Positions 6,176 through 17,289 of a stretch of 64,000 nt of DNA are shown in pieces (position 1 is the first letter of the stretch; each line of letters starts with the position of its first letter). This DNA is from Escherichia coli (lineage in GTDB: Bacteria; Pseudomonadota; Gammaproteobacteria; Enterobacterales; Enterobacteriaceae): NCBI RefSeq assembly GCF_003018255.1, contig NZ_CP027440.1; one strand, given 5' to 3'. The notes beneath the pieces are model-generated. The model did no database searches, had not been told where the DNA came from, and saw nothing but the letters and a program-made list of their open reading frames with translations. The translations under genes and the position numbers were made by a program.

Positions 6176-8608
6176 ATGAGTGTGATTGCGCAGGCAGGGG
6201 CGAAAGGTCGTCAACTGCATAAATTTGGTGGCAGTAGTCTGGCTGATGTGAAGTGTTATTTGCGTGTCGCGGGCATTATGGCGGAGTACTCTCAGCCTGA
6301 CGATATGATGGTGGTTTCCGCCGCCGGTAGCACCACTAACCAGTTGATTAACTGGTTGAAACTAAGCCAGACCGATCGTCTCTCTGCGCATCAGGTTCAA
6401 CAAACGCTACGTCGTTATCAGTGCGATCTGATTAGCGGCCTGCTACCCGCCGAAGAAGCCGATAGCCTCATTAGCGCCTTTGTCAGCGATCTGGAACGCC
6501 TCGCGGCGCTGCTCGACAGCGGTATTAATGATGCGGTGTATGCGGAAGTGGTGGGCCACGGTGAAGTGTGGTCGGCGCGCCTGATGTCTGCGGTACTTAA
6601 TCAACAAGGGCTGCCAGCGGCCTGGCTTGATGCCCGCGAGTTTTTACGCGCTGAACGCGCCGCGCAGCCGCAGGTTGATGAAGGGCTTTCTTACCCGTTG
6701 CTGCAACAGCTACTGGTACAACATCCGGGCAAACGTCTGGTGGTGACCGGGTTTATCAGCCGTAACAACGCCGGTGAAACGGTGCTGCTGGGGCGTAACG
6801 GTTCCGACTATTCCGCGACACAAATCGGTGCGCTGGCGGGTGTTTCCCGCGTAACCATCTGGAGCGATGTCGCCGGGGTATATAGTGCCGACCCGCGTAA
6901 AGTGAAAGATGCCTGTCTGCTGCCATTGCTGCGTCTTGATGAAGCCAGCGAACTGGCGCGTCTGGCGGCCCCCGTTCTTCACGCCCGTACTTTACAGCCA
7001 GTATCCGGTAGTGAAATCGACCTGCAGCTGCGCTGTAGCTACACGCCGGATCAAGGTTCCACGCGCATTGAACGCGTGCTGGCCTCCGGTACTGGTGCGC
7101 GTATTGTCACCAGCCACGATGATGTCTGTTTGATTGAGTTTCAGGTGCCCGCCAGTCAGGATTTTAAACTGGCGCATAAAGAGATCGACCAAATCCTGAA
7201 ACGTGCTCAGGTGCGCCCACTGGCAGTTGGCGTGCATAACGATCGCCAGTTGCTGCAATTTTGCTACACCTCGGAAGTGGCCGACAGTGCGCTGAAAATC
7301 CTCGACGAAGCAGGATTACCCGGCGAACTGCGTCTGCGTCAGGGGCTGGCGCTGGTGGCGATGGTTGGGGCGGGCGTCACCCGTAACCCGCTGCATTGCC
7401 ACCGCTTCTGGCAGCAACTGAAAGGCCAGCCGGTCGAGTTTACCTGGCAGTCCGATGACGGCATCAGCCTGGTGGCAGTACTGCGCACCGGCCCGACCGA
7501 AAGCCTGATTCAGGGGCTGCATCAGTCCGTCTTCCGCGCAGAAAAACGCATCGGCCTGGTATTGTTCGGTAAGGGAAATATCGGTTCCCGCTGGCTGGAA
7601 CTGTTCGCCCGTGAGCAGAGCACGCTCTCGGCGCGCACCGGCTTTGAATTTGTGCTGGCAGGCGTGGTGGACAGCCGTCGCAGCCTGTTGAGCTATGACG
7701 GGCTGGACGCCAGCCGTGCGCTAGCCTTCTTTAATGATGAAGCCGTCGAACAGGATGAAGAGTCGCTATTCCTGTGGATGCGTGCCCATCCGTATGATGA
7801 TTTAGTTGTGCTGGACGTTACTGCCAGCCAGCAGCTTGCTGATCAGTATCTCGATTTCGCCAGCCACGGTTTCCACGTCATCAGTGCCAACAAACTGGCG
7901 GGAGCGAGCGACAGCAATAAATATCGCCAGATCCACGACGCGTTCGAAAAAACCGGGCGTCACTGGCTGTACAACGCCACCGTCGGCGCAGGTTTGCCGA
8001 TCAACCATACCGTGCGCGATCTGATCGACAGCGGCGACACTATTTTGTCGATCAGCGGGATCTTCTCCGGCACGCTCTCCTGGCTGTTCCTGCAATTCGA
8101 CGGTAGCGTGCCGTTTACTGAACTGGTGGATCAGGCGTGGCAGCAGGGCTTAACTGAACCTGACCCGCGTGATGACCTCTCCGGCAAAGATGTGATGCGC
8201 AAGCTGGTGATTCTGGCGCGTGAAGCGGGTTACAACATTGAACCGGACCAGGTGCGTGTTGAATCACTGGTGCCAACCCATTGCGAAGGTGGAAGCATCG
8301 ACCATTTCTTTGAAAATGGCGATGAACTTAATGAGCAGATGGTACAACGGTTGGAAGCGGCCCGTGAAATGGGGCTGGTGTTGCGCTACGTGGCGCGTTT
8401 CGATGCCAACGGCAAAGCGCGAGTAGGCGTGGAAGCGGTGCGAGAAGACCATCCGCTGGCATCACTACTACCGTGCGATAACGTCTTTGCCATCGAAAGC
8501 CGCTGGTATCGCGATAATCCGTTGGTGATCCGCGGGCCAGGTGCAGGGCGCGACGTCACCGCCGGGGCGATTCAGTCGGATATTAACCGTCTGGCGCAGT
8601 TGTTGTAG
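6176..8608 (+). CDS. metL: Bifunctional aspartokinase II / homoserine dehydrogenase II
   Basis: 810-aa ORF starting MSVIAQAGAKGRQLHKFGGSSLADV, 2 nt after the metB stop. Confidence 0.95.
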   Translation: MSVIAQAGAKGRQLHKFGGSSLADVKCYLRVAGIMAEYSQPDDMMVVSAAGSTTNQLINWLKLSQTDRLSAHQVQQTLRRYQCDLISGLLPAEEADSLISAFVSDLERLAALLDSGINDAVYAEVVGHGEVWSARLMSAVLNQQGLPAAWLDAREFLRAERAAQPQVDEGLSYPLLQQLLVQHPGKRLVVTGFISRNNAGETVLLGRNGSDYSATQIGALAGVSRVTIWSDVAGVYSADPRKVKDACLLPLLRLDEASELARLAAPVLHARTLQPVSGSEIDLQLRCSYTPDQGSTRIERVLASGTGARIVTSHDDVCLIEFQVPASQDFKLAHKEIDQILKRAQVRPLAVGVHNDRQLLQFCYTSEVADSALKILDEAGLPGELRLRQGLALVAMVGAGVTRNPLHCHRFWQQLKGQPVEFTWQSDDGISLVAVLRTGPTESLIQGLHQSVFRAEKRIGLVLFGKGNIGSRWLELFAREQSTLSARTGFEFVLAGVVDSRRSLLSYDGLDASRALAFFNDEAVEQDEESLFLWMRAHPYDDLVVLDVTASQQLADQYLDFASHGFHVISANKLAGASDSNKYRQIHDAFEKTGRHWLYNATVGAGLPINHTVRDLIDSGDTILSISGIFSGTLSWLFLQFDGSVPFTELVDQAWQQGLTEPDPRDDLSGKDVMRKLVILAREAGYNIEPDQVRVESLVPTHCEGGSIDHFFENGDELNEQMVQRLEAAREMGLVLRYVARFDANGKARVGVEAVREDHPLASLLPCDNVFAIESRWYRDNPLVIRGPGAGRDVTAGAIQSDINRLAQLL

Positions 8609-8621
8609 TGATTATTGAACA

Positions 8622-8648
8622 AAAGCTGGCAGTTGCCAGCTTTTGTTG
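8622..8648 (+). terminator. Rho-independent terminator after metL
   Basis: Hairpin aaaagctggcagttgccagctttt followed by a T-rich tail. Confidence 0.6.
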
Positions 8649-8824
8649 TCACCTCTAAACCACCTCCTGCGGAGGTGGTGATTGATTGTCATTTTGCCTT
8701 TGGTCAGTGCCCCGGTAATAAGGGGGCTTTTGTGTTGAGCGATGAATTCACAGTGTGAATGGTGAAGTTATTTATGACAATTACAAAATGGCATTAAGTA
8801 AAAATATCTAAAACATCACCTGAT

Positions 8825-9685
8825 TTAAAATTGATAACCAATAGTAGTATAGGTTCCCCATCCTGTGTTTTTTAATTCAAATGGACCATCTCCGAAGTTA
8901 ACTTTCTCCCCAGCATTCCATTGTCCACCGTTGTGAAAATAACGTAGTGTAAATGCAAATTTCCAGTGTTCATATAGCAGGGAAAGGATATGGCTTGAAG
9001 CAATAGCATTACTGGTTCGTTTATTATTGTGTGATTTGTCCGCAAGATCGGAGCCAAAATCAAAGTTAGTAAAACTATTGTATACCAATCGCCCTCCGAA
9101 TAAATGGGTAAGAGGAATGCTATATTTTATTTTGAATCGATATCCGTCCCATTCATTTTCATTAGCGGCACCATAGTTTTGCCACTGATACTTGGCGTAT
9201 ATATTGGCAGAAAGCTTAATTGGTAGACCCGTGTCGATATCTGTACCAAGCCCCATATACCATGTACTTTGCCGGGATGACTGGTTGTCACCCATATCAT
9301 AGACATAGTTGTTTGCAATGAACCATTCTTTAAAAGGGCCGAACGCAAGATTTAATCCGGTCAATTTGTCAATGGAAAACCGAGGTTCTATTTCCGTAAA
9401 TAGTGGTGAGCCCTCATCCCAGATCCCAACATCATAGTGACTGCCGACGCCAAAGAATTTTGGTAGATCAACATAACCATAAAAATCAAACCAGTCTTTT
9501 CTTCCTGCTACAGTATATTCAGGGTAGAGGTCGTTAGTCAGTCTTGGGCCAAAGCGAGAGTCTGTGCGACCAATGACATTCAAGCTTTGATGTAACCAGC
9601 TTTCATCAATTTTAATTTCCTGAGCGTTTCCAATGCAAGGTATTAATAGAATGGATAAAGCTATCCCGTGCTTTTTTATACACAT
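8825..9685 (-). CDS. Tsx-family nucleoside-specific outer-membrane channel paralog
   Basis: 286-aa ORF with signal peptide; long colinear blocks match recalled Tsx ([98 protein letters not shown]; C-terminal aromatic GYQF). Confidence 0.85.
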
Positions 9686-9724
9686 AAATATATCTCATTA
9701 TTTATTGTTGATTTAGAGAAAAAT

Positions 9725-9752
9725 AATGCCATTCAGTGAATGAATGGCATTA
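9725..9752 (-). terminator. Hairpin terminator between the first nucleotidase gene and the Tsx-like gene
   Basis: Inverted repeat aatgccattcagtgaatgaatggcatt with T-run on the minus strand; a TATAAT-like hexamer overlaps it. Confidence 0.45.
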
Positions 9753-9763
9753 TAATTTTTTTA

Positions 9764-11383
9764 TTATTTGCTAACGTCCACCCGCATTTCATTTACCTGT
9801 GCAGGCGTAATCTTGTGGCCTTTCTTCAAATAATCGATCACGACATCGGACATGTTATTTCCGGCGCGGACCTGAACATTTTTCCCTTCTTTGAATGCCA
9901 GAAAACCATCGCCCCCCAGTGCAAGGAAAGTCGTTGTTGCAACATGGTAAATATTCGTATCAACGATCTCTTCACCATTAATTTTAAAAGATACTATGCG
10001 CTGACCTACTGGTTTCTTCGGGGTATAGCGCATTTCTGCGCCTTTTGACATTTGCAGGATGCCATTGGTAAGCGATGCCCCGTGTTCCAGTAGGTTACGC
10101 AGATCCTTACCGCTGAGATCCATTTCAGTAAGTTCATTCTTGAAGGGGAATGTACTGGTAATGTCGCCAAAGGTAATCGTGCCTGCATTTATATCCGCAC
10201 GTAAGCTGCCGGAGTTTATCAATGCAATCTGTGCAGTCGGTGCAGCGACAAGCATTGCATCGGTAAACAGGTTGCCAAGTTGCGATGACTCACCGTAGGC
10301 ACGAGTTAATGCAATCGATGATTCACCGACTGGTTGGCGTACAAGATCCGCCAGTTTTTTATTCCAGCCATTGATAACTTTTTGTGTGGTTGGATCAGGT
10401 ATCCATTCATCGGCATAAACCGTTTTCAGCTCAAAGCTCTTCACTTTATGAGTACGAGCTGTAGGGTTGACATCAAGGATTAATTTACCAATATCGATAC
10501 CGCCACTGTCAGTCGAAAGGATTAAGGTGTTGCCGACTTTGATTGGTTCTGGCGTTCCGACGTGGGCATGCCCGGTAATCAGAATATCCAATCCTTTCAC
10601 CTTGCTTGCGGTTTGAATATCTTTATCAAGAGCGCGTCTAACATCTGTATTGCCAATGCTGGACTGACGCGCCGGTACGCCTTCATGAACCAGCGCCACG
10701 GTGAGGTCAACCTTATCACGTAACTCATCGATATAATGCTGCAAATACTTCACTTCATCACGTGCTTCAATCCCCTGATTCTTGAGGGTCGCGGAAGATT
10801 TATCAAATCGGTTATTATTGTCATTATCGAGTCCCTGGAGAGAGAGCTCCGAGACCGTGTCATTAAATGCAAATACGCCGTGTAGCCCAACAATACCAAT
10901 CTTGATGCCATCTTTTTCCAGGATGGTGTAGGGCTTGTTCCAGAAGGGTTTCTCACTCTCTTTATGATAAACATTGGCTAATAAAACAGGGAAATTCGCT
11001 TTGCTTAATTGTCGGAGGGCATTATCCCAGCCATGGTCAAACTCATGATTACCGATTGATACTGCGTCAAAAGGCATGGTATTCATAATATCAATTATTG
11101 CTTCGCCCTTTGTCAGGCTACTGATATATGGCCCGGTGAAATAGTCTCCAGCATCAAAATAAAAGGTGGCTTTATTTTTGGCTTTCTCTTGTTTTACTAA
11201 CGTGGATATATTGGCAAAGCCACCAATGTCGCGTTTTCCGTCTGCGACATACGGTACTTTATAGGAATCCACATGAGCGTGAAGATCATTGGTATAAATA
11301 ATCGTGACATCCTGCGCCATAACTGAGGTCGAAAAAATAGTCAGCAATGTTGCGGCAAATAAAGTACGCTGCGCTGTTTTCAT
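9764..11383 (-). CDS. Exported bifunctional metallophosphatase/5'-nucleotidase (UshA/CpdB family), paralog A
   Basis: Signal peptide MKTAQRTLFAATLLTIFSTSVMA; metallophosphatase motifs [30 protein letters not shown] plus C-terminal 5'-nucleotidase domain. Start set at second ATG (11383), 6 nt after AAGGA; track used 11389. Confidence 0.85.
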   Translation of the reverse strand: MKTAQRTLFAATLLTIFSTSVMAQDVTIIYTNDLHAHVDSYKVPYVADGKRDIGGFANISTLVKQEKAKNKATFYFDAGDYFTGPYISSLTKGEAIIDIMNTMPFDAVSIGNHEFDHGWDNALRQLSKANFPVLLANVYHKESEKPFWNKPYTILEKDGIKIGIVGLHGVFAFNDTVSELSLQGLDNDNNNRFDKSSATLKNQGIEARDEVKYLQHYIDELRDKVDLTVALVHEGVPARQSSIGNTDVRRALDKDIQTASKVKGLDILITGHAHVGTPEPIKVGNTLILSTDSGGIDIGKLILDVNPTARTHKVKSFELKTVYADEWIPDPTTQKVINGWNKKLADLVRQPVGESSIALTRAYGESSQLGNLFTDAMLVAAPTAQIALINSGSLRADINAGTITFGDITSTFPFKNELTEMDLSGKDLRNLLEHGASLTNGILQMSKGAEMRYTPKKPVGQRIVSFKINGEEIVDTNIYHVATTTFLALGGDGFLAFKEGKNVQVRAGNNMSDVVIDYLKKGHKITPAQVNEMRVDVSK

Positions 11384-11423
11384 TCGCATTCCTTGTTAAA
11401 TAAATTGACTGATAAATGAGATT

Positions 11424-12974
11424 TTATTTGGCGACGTCCATGACTCGTTTAGTTAAGTCTGGGGTGACAGGTTTATGATTTTTGAAATAATCGATGATAG
11501 ATTCCGCCGAGGTTGTTCCCGGTATCGTCTTCACATTTTTTCCATTCAAAAATGCTTCAAAACCGTCACCACCACTGGCACAAAAGGAGTGCGTGGCAAT
11601 ACGATATGTTTGATTATCTTCCACGGGTTTGCCGTTAATGGTGAAAGAGATTAACCGTTGGTTGAGGGGTTTTTTGCTGTCATAGACAACCGCAACACTT
11701 TTAGAAACTTGTAACACACCGTTAGTTAGATTGGTTGCATGCGTCATCAATGATTTGAGATCGCGGCCCGTCAAATCCATCTCGATGAGGTCATTATTAA
11801 AGGGGAATGTGCTAATAACATCTCCCAGTGTGATATCGCCTTTAGGAAAATCAGCTCGAATCCCACCGCTATTTTGAAATCCGGCAACGGCATCAGGTGT
11901 TTTTTCCATCATTGCATCAAGAATAAGGTTGCCGGTAGAAGAGGAACTACCATACTCACGTGTTAAAACTACGGGAGAATGGCCGACAACTTCCTGTGTT
12001 ATTTTGTTAAGCTTTGCACTCCATTTATCAATAGTATTTTGAACGATGGTGTCAGGTTTAAATTGATCTGCAAAGATGGTGATTAACTCACCATTATAAC
12101 TGTCAATTTTCTTCGTTTTCGGATTGTAATCAAGCACAAGTTTTCCGATGTTGGTGCCGTATGCATCGGTAGATACAATTAATGTGTTATTAACTTTTAT
12201 TGGTTGCGGTGTTCCGACATGTGCGTGACCGGTAATTAAGACATCAACACCATTCACTTTTTTAGCTGTCTCAATATCTGCCTGTAGTAGCCGCTCCACA
12301 TCTTTACTACCAAAGCTTGATTGACGCGCCGGGACACCTTCGTGAATTAGCAAAACGGTAATGTCGACTTTACCTTTTAATTCTGCAAGTGCTTTATTTA
12401 AATATTTAATTTCGTCTCTGGCTTCTACGCCTTCACGTGCTTTTGCCGCGACTGTATCATAGAAAGCGAATGCGCCATGCAATCCAATCACACCAATCTT
12501 TAAACCATCTTTTTCGATAATGGTCCACGGATGATCCCAAACTGGTTTATTCGTATCGGTGTAGTAGATATTTCCCAGCAGAATGGGGAATTTTGCTTTT
12601 GATAACTGAGACACCATATTGGGCACACCGTGATCGAACTCGTGATTACCAACAGACACCGCATCAAAGGGCATAGTGTTCATGATATCAATAATAGCCT
12701 CACCTTTGGTCAGGGTGCTGATATACGGCCCGGTAAAATAGTCGCCTGCATCAAAGAAAAACACATCTTTGCTTTTTTTCTTCGCTTCATTAACGATGCC
12801 TGAAATATTAGCCATACCACCTATAAGTCTGTTCTTATCAACAGCGATGATTTTTGCTGGATTGACATGTGCGTGAATGTCATTCGTATAATAAATAGTA
12901 ACGTCCTGAGCTAGAACACTGTGAGAAAATATCACGCCGAATATGACTGATAATGTTGTAAATACAGTTTTCAT
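11424..12974 (-). CDS. Exported bifunctional metallophosphatase/5'-nucleotidase (UshA/CpdB family), paralog B
   Basis: Signal peptide MKTVFTTLSVIFGVIFSHSVLA; motifs [30 protein letters not shown]; AGGAGG SD just upstream (alternative start 12977). Only 34 bp from paralog A, so probably co-transcribed. Confidence 0.85.
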   Translation of the reverse strand: MKTVFTTLSVIFGVIFSHSVLAQDVTIYYTNDIHAHVNPAKIIAVDKNRLIGGMANISGIVNEAKKKSKDVFFFDAGDYFTGPYISTLTKGEAIIDIMNTMPFDAVSVGNHEFDHGVPNMVSQLSKAKFPILLGNIYYTDTNKPVWDHPWTIIEKDGLKIGVIGLHGAFAFYDTVAAKAREGVEARDEIKYLNKALAELKGKVDITVLLIHEGVPARQSSFGSKDVERLLQADIETAKKVNGVDVLITGHAHVGTPQPIKVNNTLIVSTDAYGTNIGKLVLDYNPKTKKIDSYNGELITIFADQFKPDTIVQNTIDKWSAKLNKITQEVVGHSPVVLTREYGSSSSTGNLILDAMMEKTPDAVAGFQNSGGIRADFPKGDITLGDVISTFPFNNDLIEMDLTGRDLKSLMTHATNLTNGVLQVSKSVAVVYDSKKPLNQRLISFTINGKPVEDNQTYRIATHSFCASGGDGFEAFLNGKNVKTIPGTTSAESIIDYFKNHKPVTPDLTKRVMDVAK

Positions 12975-13017
12975 CATCCCTCCTGGATAGGGTGTGTTAC
13001 ATTTGTTGAATTATTTA

Positions 13018-13040
13018 AATAAAAGACACATCGTGTCTTA
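13018..13040 (-). terminator. Hairpin terminator downstream of the cysteine-rich protein gene
   Basis: aaagacacatcgtgtctt hairpin with T-tract on the minus strand, in an AT-rich spacer. Confidence 0.4.
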
Positions 13041-13206
13041 TTTTATGTAAGCATAGTTCAGAAAAGTATTGTGTGATCTTAGTAACAAATAATGTTATTA
13101 ATTAAACATTGACCATGATTATATTTCACGGTCATACATTTATATATTTAATTAAATGAAAGGTAGTGTTCTCTCTTAATTTATGGTCGTTTGTCGAGTG
13201 TATTGA

Positions 13207-14331
13207 CTAACAAGATGGAGTGAGCGATTCATTGTATTTTAACGCCAGTGAGGTCAGCATTTGTGTTACGCGACCTGCGGATAATAACGCGCTTTGGGTA
13301 AAGTCGTGTTGGTCTGTCAGCCATGTGATAAAACAACGACTGGTTGCCAGAGAAACATTTGCGCCCCTTTCTAAGCAGGCTCCCGTGAGTAGGCAGACCA
13401 TCTTGCAGTTATTCCCCTGCTCCCAGCGCTGCCACTGATTTTGCCACCAACCATGGTATGTCGTTCCCTTAAAATGCCAGGGCGTATCAGCGTTACTGTC
13501 ACTGATTTCTTCTTCTACGAACCAAAGTTCACCTTGTTGTTGGCGGAACTGATCTGCCCAGGCTGTAATAATTGCGCCTCTTAGAAAACATTCGTGTGAA
13601 ATAATATGCGTTTTGACATCTGGATAGCGGATTTTCAGTATTCTGAAATGCCCGTGTGCCGTGATAACCGGGCGTAGTATGGCTCCCTTACCGTTGCGCT
13701 TGAGTACAGCACTGCCATACTGAATTTCATCGAACTGGCTCCGGCGCAAGAATTGCGCTTCACGCATATCTACCTTCTGCACGATATCGCGATGGTGCAT
13801 AGTTGGTTCTGTGTTGCCCTTGTAACTGTACCGCAGACTGTCTCCTGTCTGATGTTGCGTATAATTCGTGGAGAGATGAAGAATGTTGCCACGAGTGGCG
13901 TCAAGACTGACTAAAACATACAGTTTTTGTACTGCGCTGGCCCCTTGAAAGGGTATGAACAGTTGAACGGTTTCAATGGCCTGGGGATGCGTAATTTCTT
14001 TCTGATACTGTTTAGGCGTCCAGACTTTTTTGCAGTTACGGCATTGAATGCGTTGCGAACCCTGTGGATTGTGACCATAACAAATCATGTCTGTGCCATA
14101 ACATACCGGGCAGAAATGACCCTTCTCCGAGGCCCACGTAGATAAGTGAACTGACAACCAGTCACGAAATTGTTGCTCGTCAAACAACGGCGGGTAACTG
14201 CCACATGCCCGACAGTGCAGTGCCGGATAACCCAGTTTATAGTCTGGCCAACTGTAATCTTCCGATGAGGCCAATCCCAAATTTCGGCAACCGAACGTTT
14301 TACAGGCATTAATCGTAAACAGAGTCGACAT
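13207..14331 (-). CDS. Hypothetical cysteine-rich protein with multiple zinc-ribbon-like CxxC pairs; no signal peptide
   Basis: 374-aa ORF with ATG start; N-terminal third has C10/C15, C40-x2-C43, C74-x2-C77, C84, C97-x2-C100 with GHNP between the last two pairs; C-terminal part His/Trp-rich. No family recognised by eye. Confidence 0.6.
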   Translation of the reverse strand: MSTLFTINACKTFGCRNLGLASSEDYSWPDYKLGYPALHCRACGSYPPLFDEQQFRDWLSVHLSTWASEKGHFCPVCYGTDMICYGHNPQGSQRIQCRNCKKVWTPKQYQKEITHPQAIETVQLFIPFQGASAVQKLYVLVSLDATRGNILHLSTNYTQHQTGDSLRYSYKGNTEPTMHHRDIVQKVDMREAQFLRRSQFDEIQYGSAVLKRNGKGAILRPVITAHGHFRILKIRYPDVKTHIISHECFLRGAIITAWADQFRQQQGELWFVEEEISDSNADTPWHFKGTTYHGWWQNQWQRWEQGNNCKMVCLLTGACLERGANVSLATSRCFITWLTDQHDFTQSALLSAGRVTQMLTSLALKYNESLTPSC

Positions 14332-14338
14332 ATATCAC

Positions 14339-14360
14339 CAACGATTTCACAAGGTCGTTG
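14339..14360. promoter_or_regulatory. Candidate operator palindrome in the divergent promoter region
   Basis: CAACGA-N10-TCGTTG inverted repeat immediately upstream of the Cys-rich ORF start and about 100 bp upstream of paralog C. Confidence 0.3.
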
Positions 14361-14463
14361 ATTTTGTCCGGCAACTATCCCCTGCAGATGTGATTACTCT
14401 CACATAAATAAGTCTTTCAGAACGTAATGTAGCAATCCTTTATCTCACTGAAAGGGATTGTTT

Positions 14464-16017
14464 ATGAAAATTAAAATACTTGCTGCGGGTATCGCATTAA
14501 CACTGCCGTTCTGGGCTTGCGCTAAAGATGTCACTATTATTTATACCAACGACCTCCATGCGCATGTAGAACCTTATAAAGTGCCGTGGATCGCTGACGG
14601 TAAACGGGATATTGGCGGCTGGGCAAATATCACTACGCTGGTTAAGCAAGAAAAAGCAAAAAATAAAGCGACATGGTTTTTTGATGCGGGCGACTATTTT
14701 ACCGGGCCATATATCAGCAGCCTGACCAAAGGTAAGGCTATTATCGATATTATGAATACTATGCCGTTTGATGCCGTCACGATAGGCAACCATGAATTTG
14801 ACCACGGCTGGGACAACACATTATTACAGTTGAGTCAGGCAAAATTCCCGATTGTGCAGGGCAATGTTTTTTATCAGAACAGCAGTAAATCATTCTGGGA
14901 TAAGCCCTATACCATCATCGAAAAAGACGGTGTGAAAATAGGCGTTATAGGTTTGCACGGTGTATTTGCCTTTAATGACACAGTATCTGCTGCCACGCGA
15001 GTGGGTATTGAGGCGCGTGATGAAATTAAATGGCTACAACGTTATATCGATGAACTTAAAGGCAAGGTTGATTTGACCGTCGCCCTGATCCATGAAGGTG
15101 TTCCGGCCCGCCAGTCCAGTATGGGAGGCACAGATGTGCGTCGCGCGCTGGATAAAGATATTCAGACGGCAAGTCAGGTGAAAGGGCTGGATATTTTGAT
15201 CACCGGACATGCACATGTGGGTACGCCGGAACCGATTAAAGTCGGCAATACGCTCATCCTCTCCACTGACAGCGGCGGGATTGATGTGGGCAAACTGGTT
15301 CTCGACTACAAAGAGAAGCCGCATAATTTTACGGTGAAAAACTTCGAGCTTAAAACCATTTACGCTGACGAGTGGAAGCCCGATCCACAAACGAAACAGG
15401 TGATCGACGGCTGGAATAAAAAGCTTGATGAAGTGGTGCAACAAACGGTGGCGCAATCGCCGGTTGAATTAAAACGTGCCTATGGTGAATCGGCTTCCCT
15501 CGGGAACCTGGCGGCTGACGCTTTACTGGTAGCGGCGGGTAAAAACACCCAATTGGCGTTAACCAACTCTGGCGGCATTCGCAATGAGATCCCCGCAGGG
15601 GCGATCACGATGGGCGGCGTCATCAGTACGTTCCCGTTCCCCAACGAACTGGTGACGATGGAACTCACGGGTAAACAATTACGCAGTCTGATGGAACACG
15701 GCGCAAGTTTAAGCAATGGCGTTTTACAGGTATCGAAAGGCCTGGAAATGAAGTACGACAGCAGCAAGCCGGTTGGTCAGCGGGTAATCACACTGACTCT
15801 GAATGGCAAACCCATTGAAGATGCGACGGTTTATCACATTGCTACTCAGAGTTTCCTTGCTGATGGTGGAGATGGTTTTACCGCCTTTACCGAAGGGAAA
15901 GCGCGTAACACAACGGGCGGTTATTACGTTTATCACGCGGTGGTTGATTACTTCAAAGCGGGCAACACCATTACGGATGAACAGCTCAACGGTATGCGCG
16001 TGAAGGATATCAAATAA
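14464..16017 (+). CDS. Exported (possibly lipoprotein) bifunctional metallophosphatase/5'-nucleotidase (UshA/CpdB family), paralog C
   Basis: Track start 14458 is TTG; ATG at 14464 follows AAGGGA. Signal peptide [22 protein letters not shown] (possible lipobox Cys); motifs [30 protein letters not shown]. Confidence 0.85.
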
Positions 16018-16327
16018 AAGTGCGCACTGAATTGACTCAACTGTTTGTTACCCGTTGATTGCGCAGATCCTGTATTCGGCCTACGCGAGGGCGCAGGCCG
16101 AATCAGATGCCTTAGCATCACCATCCGGTGGCAGGACGTTGTTTTTCGAATTAGCCCAGGTGTCGCTGTGTTGTCAGAATATGAGTCAAAACGTGCGAGG
16201 TGGATTGTGCTATAGAGAAATCTTTTATCGCCTCTAATTAAGATGAGTTTTTTTCATCTTCCCTGATTTTTCCTCACCATCATTGGTTATTTTTCGGTTG
16301 ACGCCCTTCGGCTTTTCCTTCATCTTT

Positions 16328-16359
16328 ACATCTGGACGTCTAAACGGATAGATGTGCAC
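16328..16359. promoter_or_regulatory. Met boxes (MetJ operator) of the metF promoter
   Basis: Tandem AGACGTCT-like repeats acatctgg acgtctaa acggatag atgtgcac about 40-70 bp upstream of metF. Confidence 0.5.
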
Positions 16360-16395
16360 AACACAACATATAACGATAAGCGATTGATGAGGTAA

Positions 16396-17289
<894 letters not shown>

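What the first reader, a model, noticed from the sequence alone, without database searches (positions are those of the whole stretch)
9764..16017. Diverged inverted duplication: nucleotidase paralogs A and C flank paralog B and the Cys-rich gene
Paralogs A (minus strand) and C (plus strand) are clearly more similar to each other than either is to B; by eye roughly four-fifths of the first ~150 mature residues are identical between A and C. They form a ~1.6-kb inverted repeat around a ~3-kb core. This records an in-situ inverted duplication and is a potential substrate for homologous inversion or gene conversion.
Basis: seen in the sequence. Interest (0 to 1): 0.4.

Follow-up and report, generated by a model that had tools for sequence, protein, structure and literature searches.

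The report
Ancient inverted nucleotidase paralogs, known island
Two of three periplasmic nucleotidase genes in a known E. coli accessory island do face each other as diverged copies, but they are ancient paralogs brought together by island assembly, not a local duplication, and they almost never recombine.

Summary
A (9764-11383, -) and C (14464-16017, +) are 68% identical in protein and 67% in DNA. Each is 56-57% identical to B. The first 150 mature residues of A and C are 80% identical. About 1 kb is detectable as a 70-75% inverted repeat around a 3.1-kb core.

The interpretation mostly fails. The region is the published ExPEC island "GR 31" between metL and metF of E. coli, and C is about 99% identical to PDB 3IVD. 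Synonymous sites between A and C are saturated. A, B and C each have orthologs in other genera. A's nearest relatives are a fourth, single-copy type in Cronobacter and Atlantibacter, not C. Elsewhere A and C lie in direct orientation in one operon.

The transposase-like Cys-rich gene paired with C is a module found between metL and metF in nine genera. The Tsx-A-B block is an add-on.

All 658 complete E. coli genomes with A keep the same orientation, with no A/C hybrid tracts. The arrangement is also conserved in Citrobacter enshiensis.

Two draft E. coli genomes do carry C alleles with 394- and 445-nt patches copied exactly from A. Rare gene conversion therefore seems real. Overall the finding is ordinary.

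The parts
8609..8824 (.). Left junction of the island: sequence after the metL stop that is absent from K-12. It holds hairpins at 8618-8647 and 8659-8679.
   Evidence: K-12 homology ends at 8607.
8825..9685 (-). Tsx-family nucleoside-specific outer-membrane channel, last gene of the B-A-Tsx block.
   Evidence: Pfam Channel_Tsx E=4e-70. NCBIfam PRK15106 scores 493 bits against a cutoff of 311. RefSeq annotation.
9723..9753 (.). Perfect 13-bp-stem hairpin between A and Tsx.
9764..11383 (-). Nucleotidase paralog A (539 aa). It has a signal peptide, Metallophos and 5_nucleotid_C domains, and an A-clade-specific insertion of about 20 aa.
   Evidence: Catalytic motifs DLHAH, AGDYF, GNHEFD, HEGV and GHAH are intact. 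Present in 658 of 5426 complete E. coli genomes, one copy each.
11424..12974 (-). Nucleotidase paralog B (516 aa), the most divergent of the three.
   Evidence: The B super-clade has bootstrap 100.
12975..13206 (.). AT-rich spacer between the Cys-rich gene's 3' end and B. It is the inferred promoter region of the B-A-Tsx block.
   Evidence: Short A-B (40 nt) and Tsx-A (78 nt) gaps. Promoter-like site at 13039-13010. The promoter role is an inference.
13207..14331 (-). Cys-rich cytoplasmic protein (374 aa): two 4-Cys zinc ribbons, the second IS1 InsA-like, followed by an RNase H / DDE transposase-integrase-like fold.
14332..14463 (.). 132-nt divergent intergenic region between the Cys-rich gene and C. 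A spacer of similar length separates the two genes in most related loci.
14464..16017 (+). Nucleotidase paralog C (517 aa), about 99% identical to PDB 3IVD/3IVE.
   Evidence: Present in 1843 of 5426 complete genomes, one copy each.
10242..11311 (-). Arm of the detectable DNA-level inverted repeat inside A (two segments, 70-75% complementary to C).
14527..15536 (+). Matching arm inside C.
10577..11072 (-). Part of A corresponding to the donor tracts copied into C in two draft genomes (X1: 10679-11072; X2: 10577-11021).
14766..15201 (+). Part of C that is replaced in those mosaic alleles (X1: 14766-15099; X2: 14817-15201). It is unconverted in this window.
   Evidence: No reduced synonymous divergence here in the window.
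16018..16248 (.). Right junction: island-specific sequence downstream of C. K-12 homology (metF promoter region) resumes at 16249.

Best explanation
The region is the known accessory island between metL and metF of E. coli (ExPEC 'GR 31'). It is a composite of two modules. Module 1 is a transposase-derived Cys-rich gene transcribed divergently from periplasmic nucleotidase C. This pair is found between metL and metF in nine genera of Enterobacteriaceae and is probably ancestral there. Module 2 is the B-A-Tsx block, which lies between metL and the 3' end of the Cys-rich gene in a minority of E. coli and in Citrobacter enshiensis. A and C are ancient paralogs. Their split is at least as old as the split from the single-copy D type of Cronobacter and Atlantibacter, and far older than the divergence of these genera. 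The head-to-head orientation therefore reflects how the modules were juxtaposed, not a local inverted duplication. The high identity of the N-terminal halves reflects purifying selection on the shared metallophosphatase catalytic domain. Functionally (inferred), the three secreted nucleotidases have intact active sites and divergent C-terminal substrate domains. They would dephosphorylate different periplasmic nucleotides, and the Tsx-like channel would move nucleosides across the outer membrane. As a recombination substrate the repeat is practically inert: no inversion and no concerted evolution. Very rare non-reciprocal A-to-C patch transfers of about 400 nt with 2-17-nt junction identities do occur. 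These fit template switching or homeologous conversion better than RecA-type crossover.
For: Identity of the locus: 100% match to E. coli JNE23-011 with metL, Tsx, three nucleotidases, a hypothetical gene and metF. GR 31 metL..metF is described with three UshA-like ORFs and Tsx in PMC12928451. C is about 99% identical to PDB 3IVD. Age: pS for A-C is 0.77, and 0.67-1.09 in every 60-codon window. Orthologs of A (85-88%), B (91%) and C (88-93%) occur in other genera. NJ tree: A+D bootstrap 99, (A+D)+C 100, B super-clade 100. A-C, A-D and C-D identities are equal in the N-terminal domain (0.72 and 0.86). In the C-terminal domain A-D is 0.70, C-D 0.62 and A-C 0.57. Modules: the short form (Cys-rich + C only) is in about 1185 complete E. 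coli genomes and in nine genera at metL-metF. The long form has an extra 8609-13243. Cys-rich dS between long and short forms is 1.10, against 0.088 for C, with a breakpoint near 14040. A and C are co-directional in E. albertii, Enterobacter asburiae and Citrobacter wls619 arrays. Stability: the 7.8-kb query, the core and gene A each hit 658 genomes, one collinear place each. The same order occurs in C. enshiensis, where dS of A (1.05) and B (0.96) matches metL (1.00) and metF (1.09). A-C identity is 0.687 within a locus and 0.684 between genomes. Rare conversion: X1 (L047) and X2 (L050) are perfect C/A/C mosaics in two different haplotypes with different endpoints. The X1 contig ends 314 nt into A, where the duplicated tract begins.
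Against: The tree is neighbour-joining only. The A+D grouping rests mainly on the C-terminal domain, and a faster-evolving C could inflate it. The direction of the long/short change (insertion versus deletion or replacement) is inferred from distribution and is not proven. The source of the B-A-Tsx block is unknown: its B and Tsx are only 71% and 57% identical to those of the co-directional arrays. The two mosaic alleles come from draft short-read assemblies with adjacent accession series. They were not found in any of 5426 complete genomes or in JGI metagenomes. No enzymology or expression data exist for A, B or the Cys-rich protein, so the physiological role is inferred from family membership.
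Confidence: 0.75

Rival explanations
1. One reading: C (or A) was duplicated in inverted orientation in place at the metL-metF locus. The copies then diverged, and B arose by a further, older or faster-diverging duplication.
For: A-C identity exceeds A-B and B-C identity. The two genes flank a compact core. A, C and D form one clade with bootstrap 100 relative to B, so A and C do share a duplication ancestor at some depth.
Against: D-type genes of other genera are at least as close to A as C is, and they group with A (bootstrap 99). Synonymous sites are saturated. The similarity stops at the coding-region borders. A and C are co-directional in other arrays. The Cys-rich + C pair without A is the common state of the locus.
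Confidence: 0.1
2. A and C are kept similar, especially in the N-terminal 150 residues, by ongoing gene conversion between the inverted copies (concerted evolution).
For: N-terminal windows reach 84-98% amino-acid identity. Two A-to-C patch alleles show that transfer is mechanistically possible.
Against: Synonymous divergence is saturated in those same windows (pS 0.72-0.87, pN 0.03-0.08). A-C identity is the same within a locus (0.687) and between genomes (0.684). D is equally similar to both A and C in the N-terminal domain. The longest identical run equals the shuffled expectation. No A-like or C-like extra tracts exist in 5426 complete genomes.
Confidence: 0.03
3. The mosaic C/A/C alleles and the B-A fusion are assembly artefacts, so the paralogs never exchange sequence at all.
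For: Both mosaics are from fragmented short-read drafts with adjacent accession series (LQVM, LQUG). The B-A fusion is a single metagenome scaffold. None is seen in complete genomes or JGI metagenomes.
Against: Junction identities are only 17 and 8 nt (X1), 2 and 5 nt (X2) and 11 nt (fusion). These are shorter than the k-mers I would expect a de Bruijn assembler to use (inference from general knowledge; the assembly parameters are unknown). The two mosaics are in haplotypes differing at 116 sites, each tract matches the A of its own haplotype at every informative site, and the endpoints differ. All three reading frames stay open. The X1 contig breaks exactly at the start of the duplicated tract in A, as expected for a real 394-nt repeat.
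Confidence: 0.2

Closest known systems
Genomic region GR 31 (metL..metF) of ExPEC/APEC strains (BEN2908, UTI89, RS218, LF82, NRG857c), PMC12928451
   Same: Same chromosomal site and same gene content: a Tsx-like channel plus three UshA-like nucleotidase ORFs. UTI89, UM146, Nissle 1917 and ATCC 25922 carry A at 98% identity or hold the island core.
   Different: The passages of that paper that I read list the genes and suggest nucleoside processing. Those passages do not discuss the paralog relationships, the short form, the origin of the arrangement or the Cys-rich protein.
PDB 3IVD / 3IVE 'Nucleotidase'. From memory, not checked here: putative 5'-nucleotidase c4898 of E. coli CFT073, crystallised with uridine or cytidine.
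   Same: C is about 99% identical over residues 19-517. The crystallised chain starts where the predicted signal peptide ends.
   Different: A is a much weaker match to this chain than C (762 bits against 1122 bits), and B was not tested. No published biochemistry was found.
UshA / 5'-nucleotidase (calcineurin-like metallophosphatase + 5_nucleotid_C) family
   Same: Both Pfam domains score above gathering thresholds and all metal-binding motifs are present in A, B and C.
   Different: All NCBIfam equivalog models (UshA, NadN, CpdB, SoxB, YfkN-type) score far below their cutoffs. Substrate specificity is therefore unknown.
IS1 transposase (InsA zinc ribbon / InsAB') and DDE transposase-integrase superfamily
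   Different: No sequence match to any DDE domain model. No terminal inverted repeats. Usually one copy per genome, at a fixed locus across genera. It looks domesticated, not mobile.
Inversions between inverted repeats (rrn operons, IS copies) by RecA-dependent recombination
   Same: Two homologous segments in inverted orientation around a 3-kb core.
   Different: Identity is 67% with runs of at most 17 nt, below the roughly 23-27-nt minimum processing segment known for E. coli (established knowledge). No inversion is seen in 658 genomes.

Membership tests
5'-nucleotidase / UshA-like periplasmic metallophosphatases (A, B, C) | Calcineurin-like Metallophos domain plus 5_nucleotid_C domain above Pfam gathering scores | tested here: met
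   Metallophos scores 44-48 bits (cutoff 21.5). 5_nucleotid_C scores 128-136 bits (cutoff 23.6).
5'-nucleotidase / UshA-like periplasmic metallophosphatases (A, B, C) | Conserved metal-binding and catalytic motifs (DxH, GD, GNHE, H, GHxH) | tested here: met
   D[LI]HAH, AGDYF, GNHEFD, HEGV and GHAH are present in all three.
5'-nucleotidase / UshA-like periplasmic metallophosphatases (A, B, C) | Membership of a named equivalog (UshA, NadN, CpdB, SoxB) | tested here: not met
   All NCBIfam equivalog scores are far below their cutoffs, for example UshA 152-169 bits against 600.
5'-nucleotidase / UshA-like periplasmic metallophosphatases (A, B, C) | Nucleotide-hydrolysing activity and periplasmic location | not testable with these tools
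   N-terminal hydrophobic leaders ending in A-x-A are read from the sequence. The PDB construct starts at residue 19.
Recent in-situ (segmental) inverted duplication | The two copies are each other's closest relatives | tested here: not met
   A groups with D-type genes of other genera (bootstrap 99). Identities are A-D 0.74, C-D 0.71 and A-C 0.68.
Recent in-situ (segmental) inverted duplication | Unsaturated synonymous divergence, and similarity extending into flanking non-coding DNA | tested here: not met
   pS is 0.77, which is saturated. The repeat arms lie wholly inside the coding regions.
Recombinogenic inverted repeat (inversion switch or inversion polymorphism) | Identical stretches at or above the minimal processing length for RecA recombination | tested here: not met
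   The longest identical A-C run is 17 nt, equal to the shuffled expectation.
Recombinogenic inverted repeat (inversion switch or inversion polymorphism) | Both orientations of the core occur in the population | tested here: not met
   658 of 658 complete genomes are collinear over at least 80% of the 7.8-kb query. C. enshiensis has the same order.
Paralogs undergoing gene conversion | Mosaic alleles whose tract is identical to the paralog | tested here: inconclusive
   Absent in this window and in complete genomes. Present as two clean mosaics in draft assemblies, which could not be checked at read level.
Tsx nucleoside channel | Score above the family cutoff | tested here: met
   NCBIfam PRK15106 scores 493 bits against 311. 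Pfam Channel_Tsx E=4e-70.
IS1-family / DDE transposase (Cys-rich protein) | InsA-type N-terminal zinc ribbon | tested here: met
   hhalign gives 94% probability, E=1e-7, to IS1 InsA residues 6-44. 32 of 39 homologs hit Zn_ribbon_InsA, best E=4e-8. The window protein alone is sub-threshold.
IS1-family / DDE transposase (Cys-rich protein) | RNase H-like catalytic fold | tested here: met
IS1-family / DDE transposase (Cys-rich protein) | Recognisable DDE triad and sequence match to a transposase catalytic domain | tested here: inconclusive
   No DDE model hit. D144, D201, H226, H228 and E247 are invariant, but their assignment to the active site is unproven.
IS1-family / DDE transposase (Cys-rich protein) | Terminal inverted repeats and multiple mobile copies | tested here: not met
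   No terminal repeats around the Cys-rich/C unit. One copy per genome in most genomes, at a fixed site across genera.

The most novel reading that the evidence does not exclude
The Cys-rich protein may be a still-active DDE-type recombinase derived from an IS1-like transposase. In this reading it assembles and shuffles nucleotidase and Tsx cassettes next to itself. That would explain the variable arrays that always begin at this gene: C alone; C plus a B-like gene; C plus Tsx; C, one or two B-like genes, Tsx, A and a radical-SAM gene; or B-A-Tsx on its other side. It might also explain the microhomology-bounded A-to-C patch transfers. A milder version is that it is a domesticated transposase acting as the dedicated regulator of the divergent nucleotidase gene.
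Probability: 0.07. Interest if true: 0.6.

Novelty: already known. Interest (0 to 1): 0.2.

Why it matters
As stated, the finding matters little. It is a paralogous gene cluster in a published ExPEC accessory island. The inverted copies are too old and too diverged to drive rearrangement.

The follow-up does add some modest points:
- The metL-metF site has three states in E. coli: empty, short and long.
- The long form is as old as the Escherichia-Citrobacter split.
- The three nucleotidases are old, separately conserved lineages, which suggests distinct substrates worth testing in extraintestinal pathogens.
- An uncharacterised transposase-derived zinc-ribbon protein is faithfully paired with this nucleotidase family across Enterobacteriaceae.
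- Two natural patch-conversion alleles are a small example of sequence transfer between paralogs that are about 33% divergent.

Tried and rejected
- Literature searches for locus tags and the PDB code (c4896-c4898, 3IVD) and for the WGS accessions of the two mosaic-bearing assemblies returned nothing relevant.
- A junction-spanning pattern (C-specific anchor, gap, A-specific insertion) matched both mosaic loci locally but nothing in JGI metagenome contigs.
- The search for terminal inverted repeats around the Cys-rich/C unit found only chance-level pairs, so an active IS-like element was rejected.
- The search for shared cassette-boundary motifs across arrays found only genus-specific hairpins that look like terminators or REP-like elements, and no attC-like site.
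- The AlphaFold-database fold library was unavailable.
- No maximum-likelihood tree software was installed, so a hand-written NJ with 300 bootstraps was used (one search failed on name parsing, and one search printed all key nodes before a formatting error).
- An ungapped comparison of the first 150 residues for A-B and B-C is an alignment-offset artefact and was ignored.
- The promoter scan found fewer sites than in shuffles and is uninformative.

Full report
**What is there.** The window is E. coli chromosome. Positions 8600-16400 match strain JNE23-011 at 100%. RefSeq annotates the following:
- metL, 6176-8608 (+)
- a Tsx-family channel, 8825-9685 (-)
- three 'bifunctional metallophosphatase/5'-nucleotidase' genes: A 9764-11383 (-), B 11424-12974 (-), C 14464-16017 (+)
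- a hypothetical Cys-rich gene, 13207-14331 (-)
- metF, 16399-17289 (+)

GC content in 2-kb windows across 8001-16000 is 41-48%, against about 52-57% in the neighbouring chromosome. K-12 has none of these genes. Its homology ends at 8607 and resumes at 16249. The island is published as 'GR 31, metL..metF' of APEC and ExPEC strains, described as three UshA-like ORFs plus a Tsx-like channel (PMC12928451). C is about 99% identical to PDB 3IVD/3IVE.

**Checking the observation.**
- Protein identity is A-C 68%, A-B 56-57% and B-C 57%.
- Codon-aligned DNA identity is 67%, 59% and 58%.
- A repeat finder reports inverted arms 10242-10775/15003-15536 (70%) and 10851-11311/14527-14987 (75%), 3215 nt apart.

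So the geometry and the ranking are right. As DNA, however, the 'repeat' is weak:
- The longest identical run is 17 nt, exactly what codon-shuffled alignments give (mean 16.9, P=0.53).
- The proportion of synonymous differences is 0.77, which is saturated, overall. It is 0.67-1.09 in every 60-codon window.
- Non-synonymous divergence falls to 0.03-0.08 in the catalytic core.

The N-terminal similarity therefore reflects protein-level constraint, not recent shared DNA ancestry.

**Is it an in-situ inverted duplication?** Five lines of evidence say no.

1. A, B and C each have orthologs elsewhere. A is 85-88% identical in Citrobacter, Enterobacter and E. albertii. B is 91% identical in Citrobacter enshiensis. 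C is 88-93% identical in many genera.

2. A fourth, single-copy 'D' type (Cronobacter, Atlantibacter, Citrobacter amalonaticus group) is about 70% identical to both A and C.
   - In an NJ tree with 300 bootstraps, A+D has 99% support, (A+D)+C has 100%, and the B super-clade has 100%.
   - By domain, A-C, A-D and C-D identities are equal in the N-terminal domain. In the C-terminal domain A-D (0.70) exceeds C-D (0.62), which exceeds A-C (0.57).

3. The Cys-rich gene and C form a conserved divergent pair.
   - A genome-wide scan found this pair between metL and metF in Escherichia, Pseudocitrobacter, Citrobacter, Klebsiella, Kosakonia, Phytobacter, Superficieibacter, Kluyvera and Salmonella arizonae, without A or B.
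   - In E. coli this 'short form' is in about 1185 complete genomes. The 'long form' with Tsx-A-B is in 658, and the rest are empty.
   - The long form has an extra 8609-13243 relative to the short form.
   - The Cys-rich gene is deeply diverged between the two forms (dS 1.10), while C is not (dS 0.088). The breakpoint lies near 14040.

4. At other chromosomal sites all nucleotidase genes run in the same direction away from the Cys-rich gene. The fullest arrays read C, one or two B-like genes, Tsx, A, then a radical-SAM gene. These sites are kdsA-chaA in E. albertii and cryptic Escherichia, and next to an arylsulfotransferase gene in Enterobacter asburiae (and probably Citrobacter sp. wls619, where that flank was not recovered). 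There, A and C are direct, not inverted.

5. Citrobacter enshiensis has exactly the E. coli long-form order at metL-metF. Its dS values for A (1.05) and B (0.96) equal those of metL (1.00) and metF (1.09). The inverted arrangement is therefore about as old as the split of the two genera.

The most economical reading is a composite island: an old Cys-rich/C module plus an added B-A-Tsx block.

**Is it a recombination substrate?**
- Inversion: the 7.8-kb query, the core alone and gene A alone each hit exactly 658 complete genomes, one collinear place each. An inverted core could not give 80% or more collinear coverage. No inversion exists in this sample.
- Concerted evolution: A-C identity is 0.687 within a locus and 0.684 between genomes.
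- Extra tracts: no additional A-like or C-like tract exists in any of 5426 complete genomes.

The protein search did turn up hybrids.
- **X1.** P0015 (E. coli GCA_001520995.1, locus L047) is C with a 394-nt internal tract that matches A of the same haplotype at all 165 informative sites. The tract includes A's 60-nt insertion. The junctions lie in 17- and 8-nt identical stretches. The contig ends 314 nt into A, exactly where the duplicated tract begins.
- **X2.** P0121 (GCA_001520215.1, locus L050) is a second mosaic in a different haplotype, with 116 differences from the first. Its 445-nt tract matches ATCC 25922-type A at all 177 informative sites. Its endpoints are different, with 2- and 5-nt junctions.
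- **B-A fusion.** A metagenome scaffold carries a B5'-A3' fusion with an 11-nt junction, as expected for a deletion between the tandem genes.

The junction identities are shorter than the k-mers I would expect a de Bruijn assembler to use (an inference; the assembly parameters are unknown). I therefore think the mosaics are real but very rare. They look more like template switching or homeologous patch repair than classical crossover. They remain unverified at read level. They were not found in JGI metagenomes.

**The Cys-rich gene.**
- It has eight invariant cysteines in two zinc ribbons.
- The second ribbon is IS1 InsA-like: hhalign 94%, and Pfam Zn_ribbon_InsA matches 32 of 39 homologs.
- D144, D201, H226, H228 and E247 are invariant.
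- There are no terminal repeats around the unit. In most genomes it is single-copy. dN/dS is 0.12-0.26. It looks like a domesticated transposase-derived protein, perhaps a regulator of the divergent nucleotidase gene.
- Even the D-type nucleotidases have a 37-40% identical homolog in the same divergent position.

**Function (inferred).** A, B and C have signal-peptide-like leaders, both family domains and all metal-binding motifs. None reaches any named equivalog cutoff. Their C-terminal substrate-binding domains are the diverged part. With the Tsx-like channel, this fits a periplasmic nucleotide-to-nucleoside scavenging set with three specificities. Nothing here tests that.

**Verdict.** The island is already known. 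Interest is low.

Noticed in passing
window 13207-14331 (-): The 'Cys-rich gene' encodes two 4-Cys zinc ribbons, the second IS1 InsA-like, plus an RNase H / DDE transposase-integrase-like fold. It has no Pfam family, no terminal repeats, and in most genomes is single-copy. It is always divergently paired with a C- or D-type nucleotidase across Enterobacteriaceae, so it is probably a domesticated transposase.
   Followed up: yes
L047:3398-5011 and L050:1749-3362 (window equivalents C 14766-15201, A 10577-11072): Two draft E. coli genomes carry C alleles in which a 394- or 445-nt segment is replaced by the exactly matching segment of A. The two alleles are in different haplotypes and have different endpoints and 2-17-nt junction identities.
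   Followed up: yes
L048:377-1855: A metagenome scaffold has a B5'-A3' fusion gene followed by Tsx and metL. The junction is an 11-nt identity in the [10 protein letters not shown]-coding region, as expected from a deletion between the tandem paralogs.
   Followed up: partly
window 8609-16248; L002, L003, L049: The metL-metF site is tri-allelic in E. coli: empty (K-12-like, about 66% of complete genomes), short (Cys-rich + C, about 22%, with the Cys-rich ORF overlapping the metL 3' end) and long (12%).
   Followed up: yes
window ~14040 (inside the Cys-rich gene): There is a recombination breakpoint between haplotypes. To the left the window is 64-83% identical to the short-form allele (dS 1.10 for the gene). 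To the right it is mostly 93-100% identical.
   Followed up: partly
L006, L019, L039 (kdsA-chaA); L018, L041: Other loci hold larger co-directional arrays next to the Cys-rich gene: up to four nucleotidase genes and a Tsx gene, ending in a radical-SAM gene resembling anaerobic sulfatase maturases. Some genomes (E. coli SCPM-O-B-8794, Escherichia sp. MOD1-EC7003, Citrobacter sp. wls619) carry both this array and the metL-metF pair.
   Followed up: partly
L008, L015, L017, L018, L020, L037, L038: In Cronobacter, Pluralibacter, Silvania and Enterobacter the Cys-rich/nucleotidase pair sits next to a periplasmic arylsulfotransferase gene.
   Followed up: no
L018, L020, L037; window 8659-8679; L006, L039: Recurring hairpins occur at module edges. 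AAGGGTTCATG..CATGAACCCTT lies on both sides of the Cys-rich/C pair in L018 and L037, and downstream of the Cys-rich gene in L020 (all Enterobacter). ACCACCTCC..GGAGGTGGT lies downstream of metL in the window and downstream of C in the kdsA-chaA arrays. They are probably terminators or REP-like elements.
   Followed up: partly
window ~10781-10846 (A residues ~180-201): An A-clade-specific insertion of about 20 residues, rich in Asn and Asp (LSLQGLDNDNNNRFDKSSATLK), is absent from B, C and D. It is carried into C by both conversion tracts.
   Followed up: no
L052:5949-6646 and hits H8-H10, H30: Several strains have IS1 or ISVsa5 inserted in the island. Examples are IS1A between the Cys-rich gene and C in strain CT30, and an IS1 beside a truncated nucleotidase gene under the B/Cys-rich query in EC17CM2.
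   Followed up: no
summary: Two of the 1843 C-gene matches in complete E. coli genomes are on plasmids.
   Followed up: no
L005:13037-14020: The Citrobacter enshiensis long-form island has an extra 327-aa multi-pass membrane protein with no Pfam hit between Tsx and metL.
   Followed up: no
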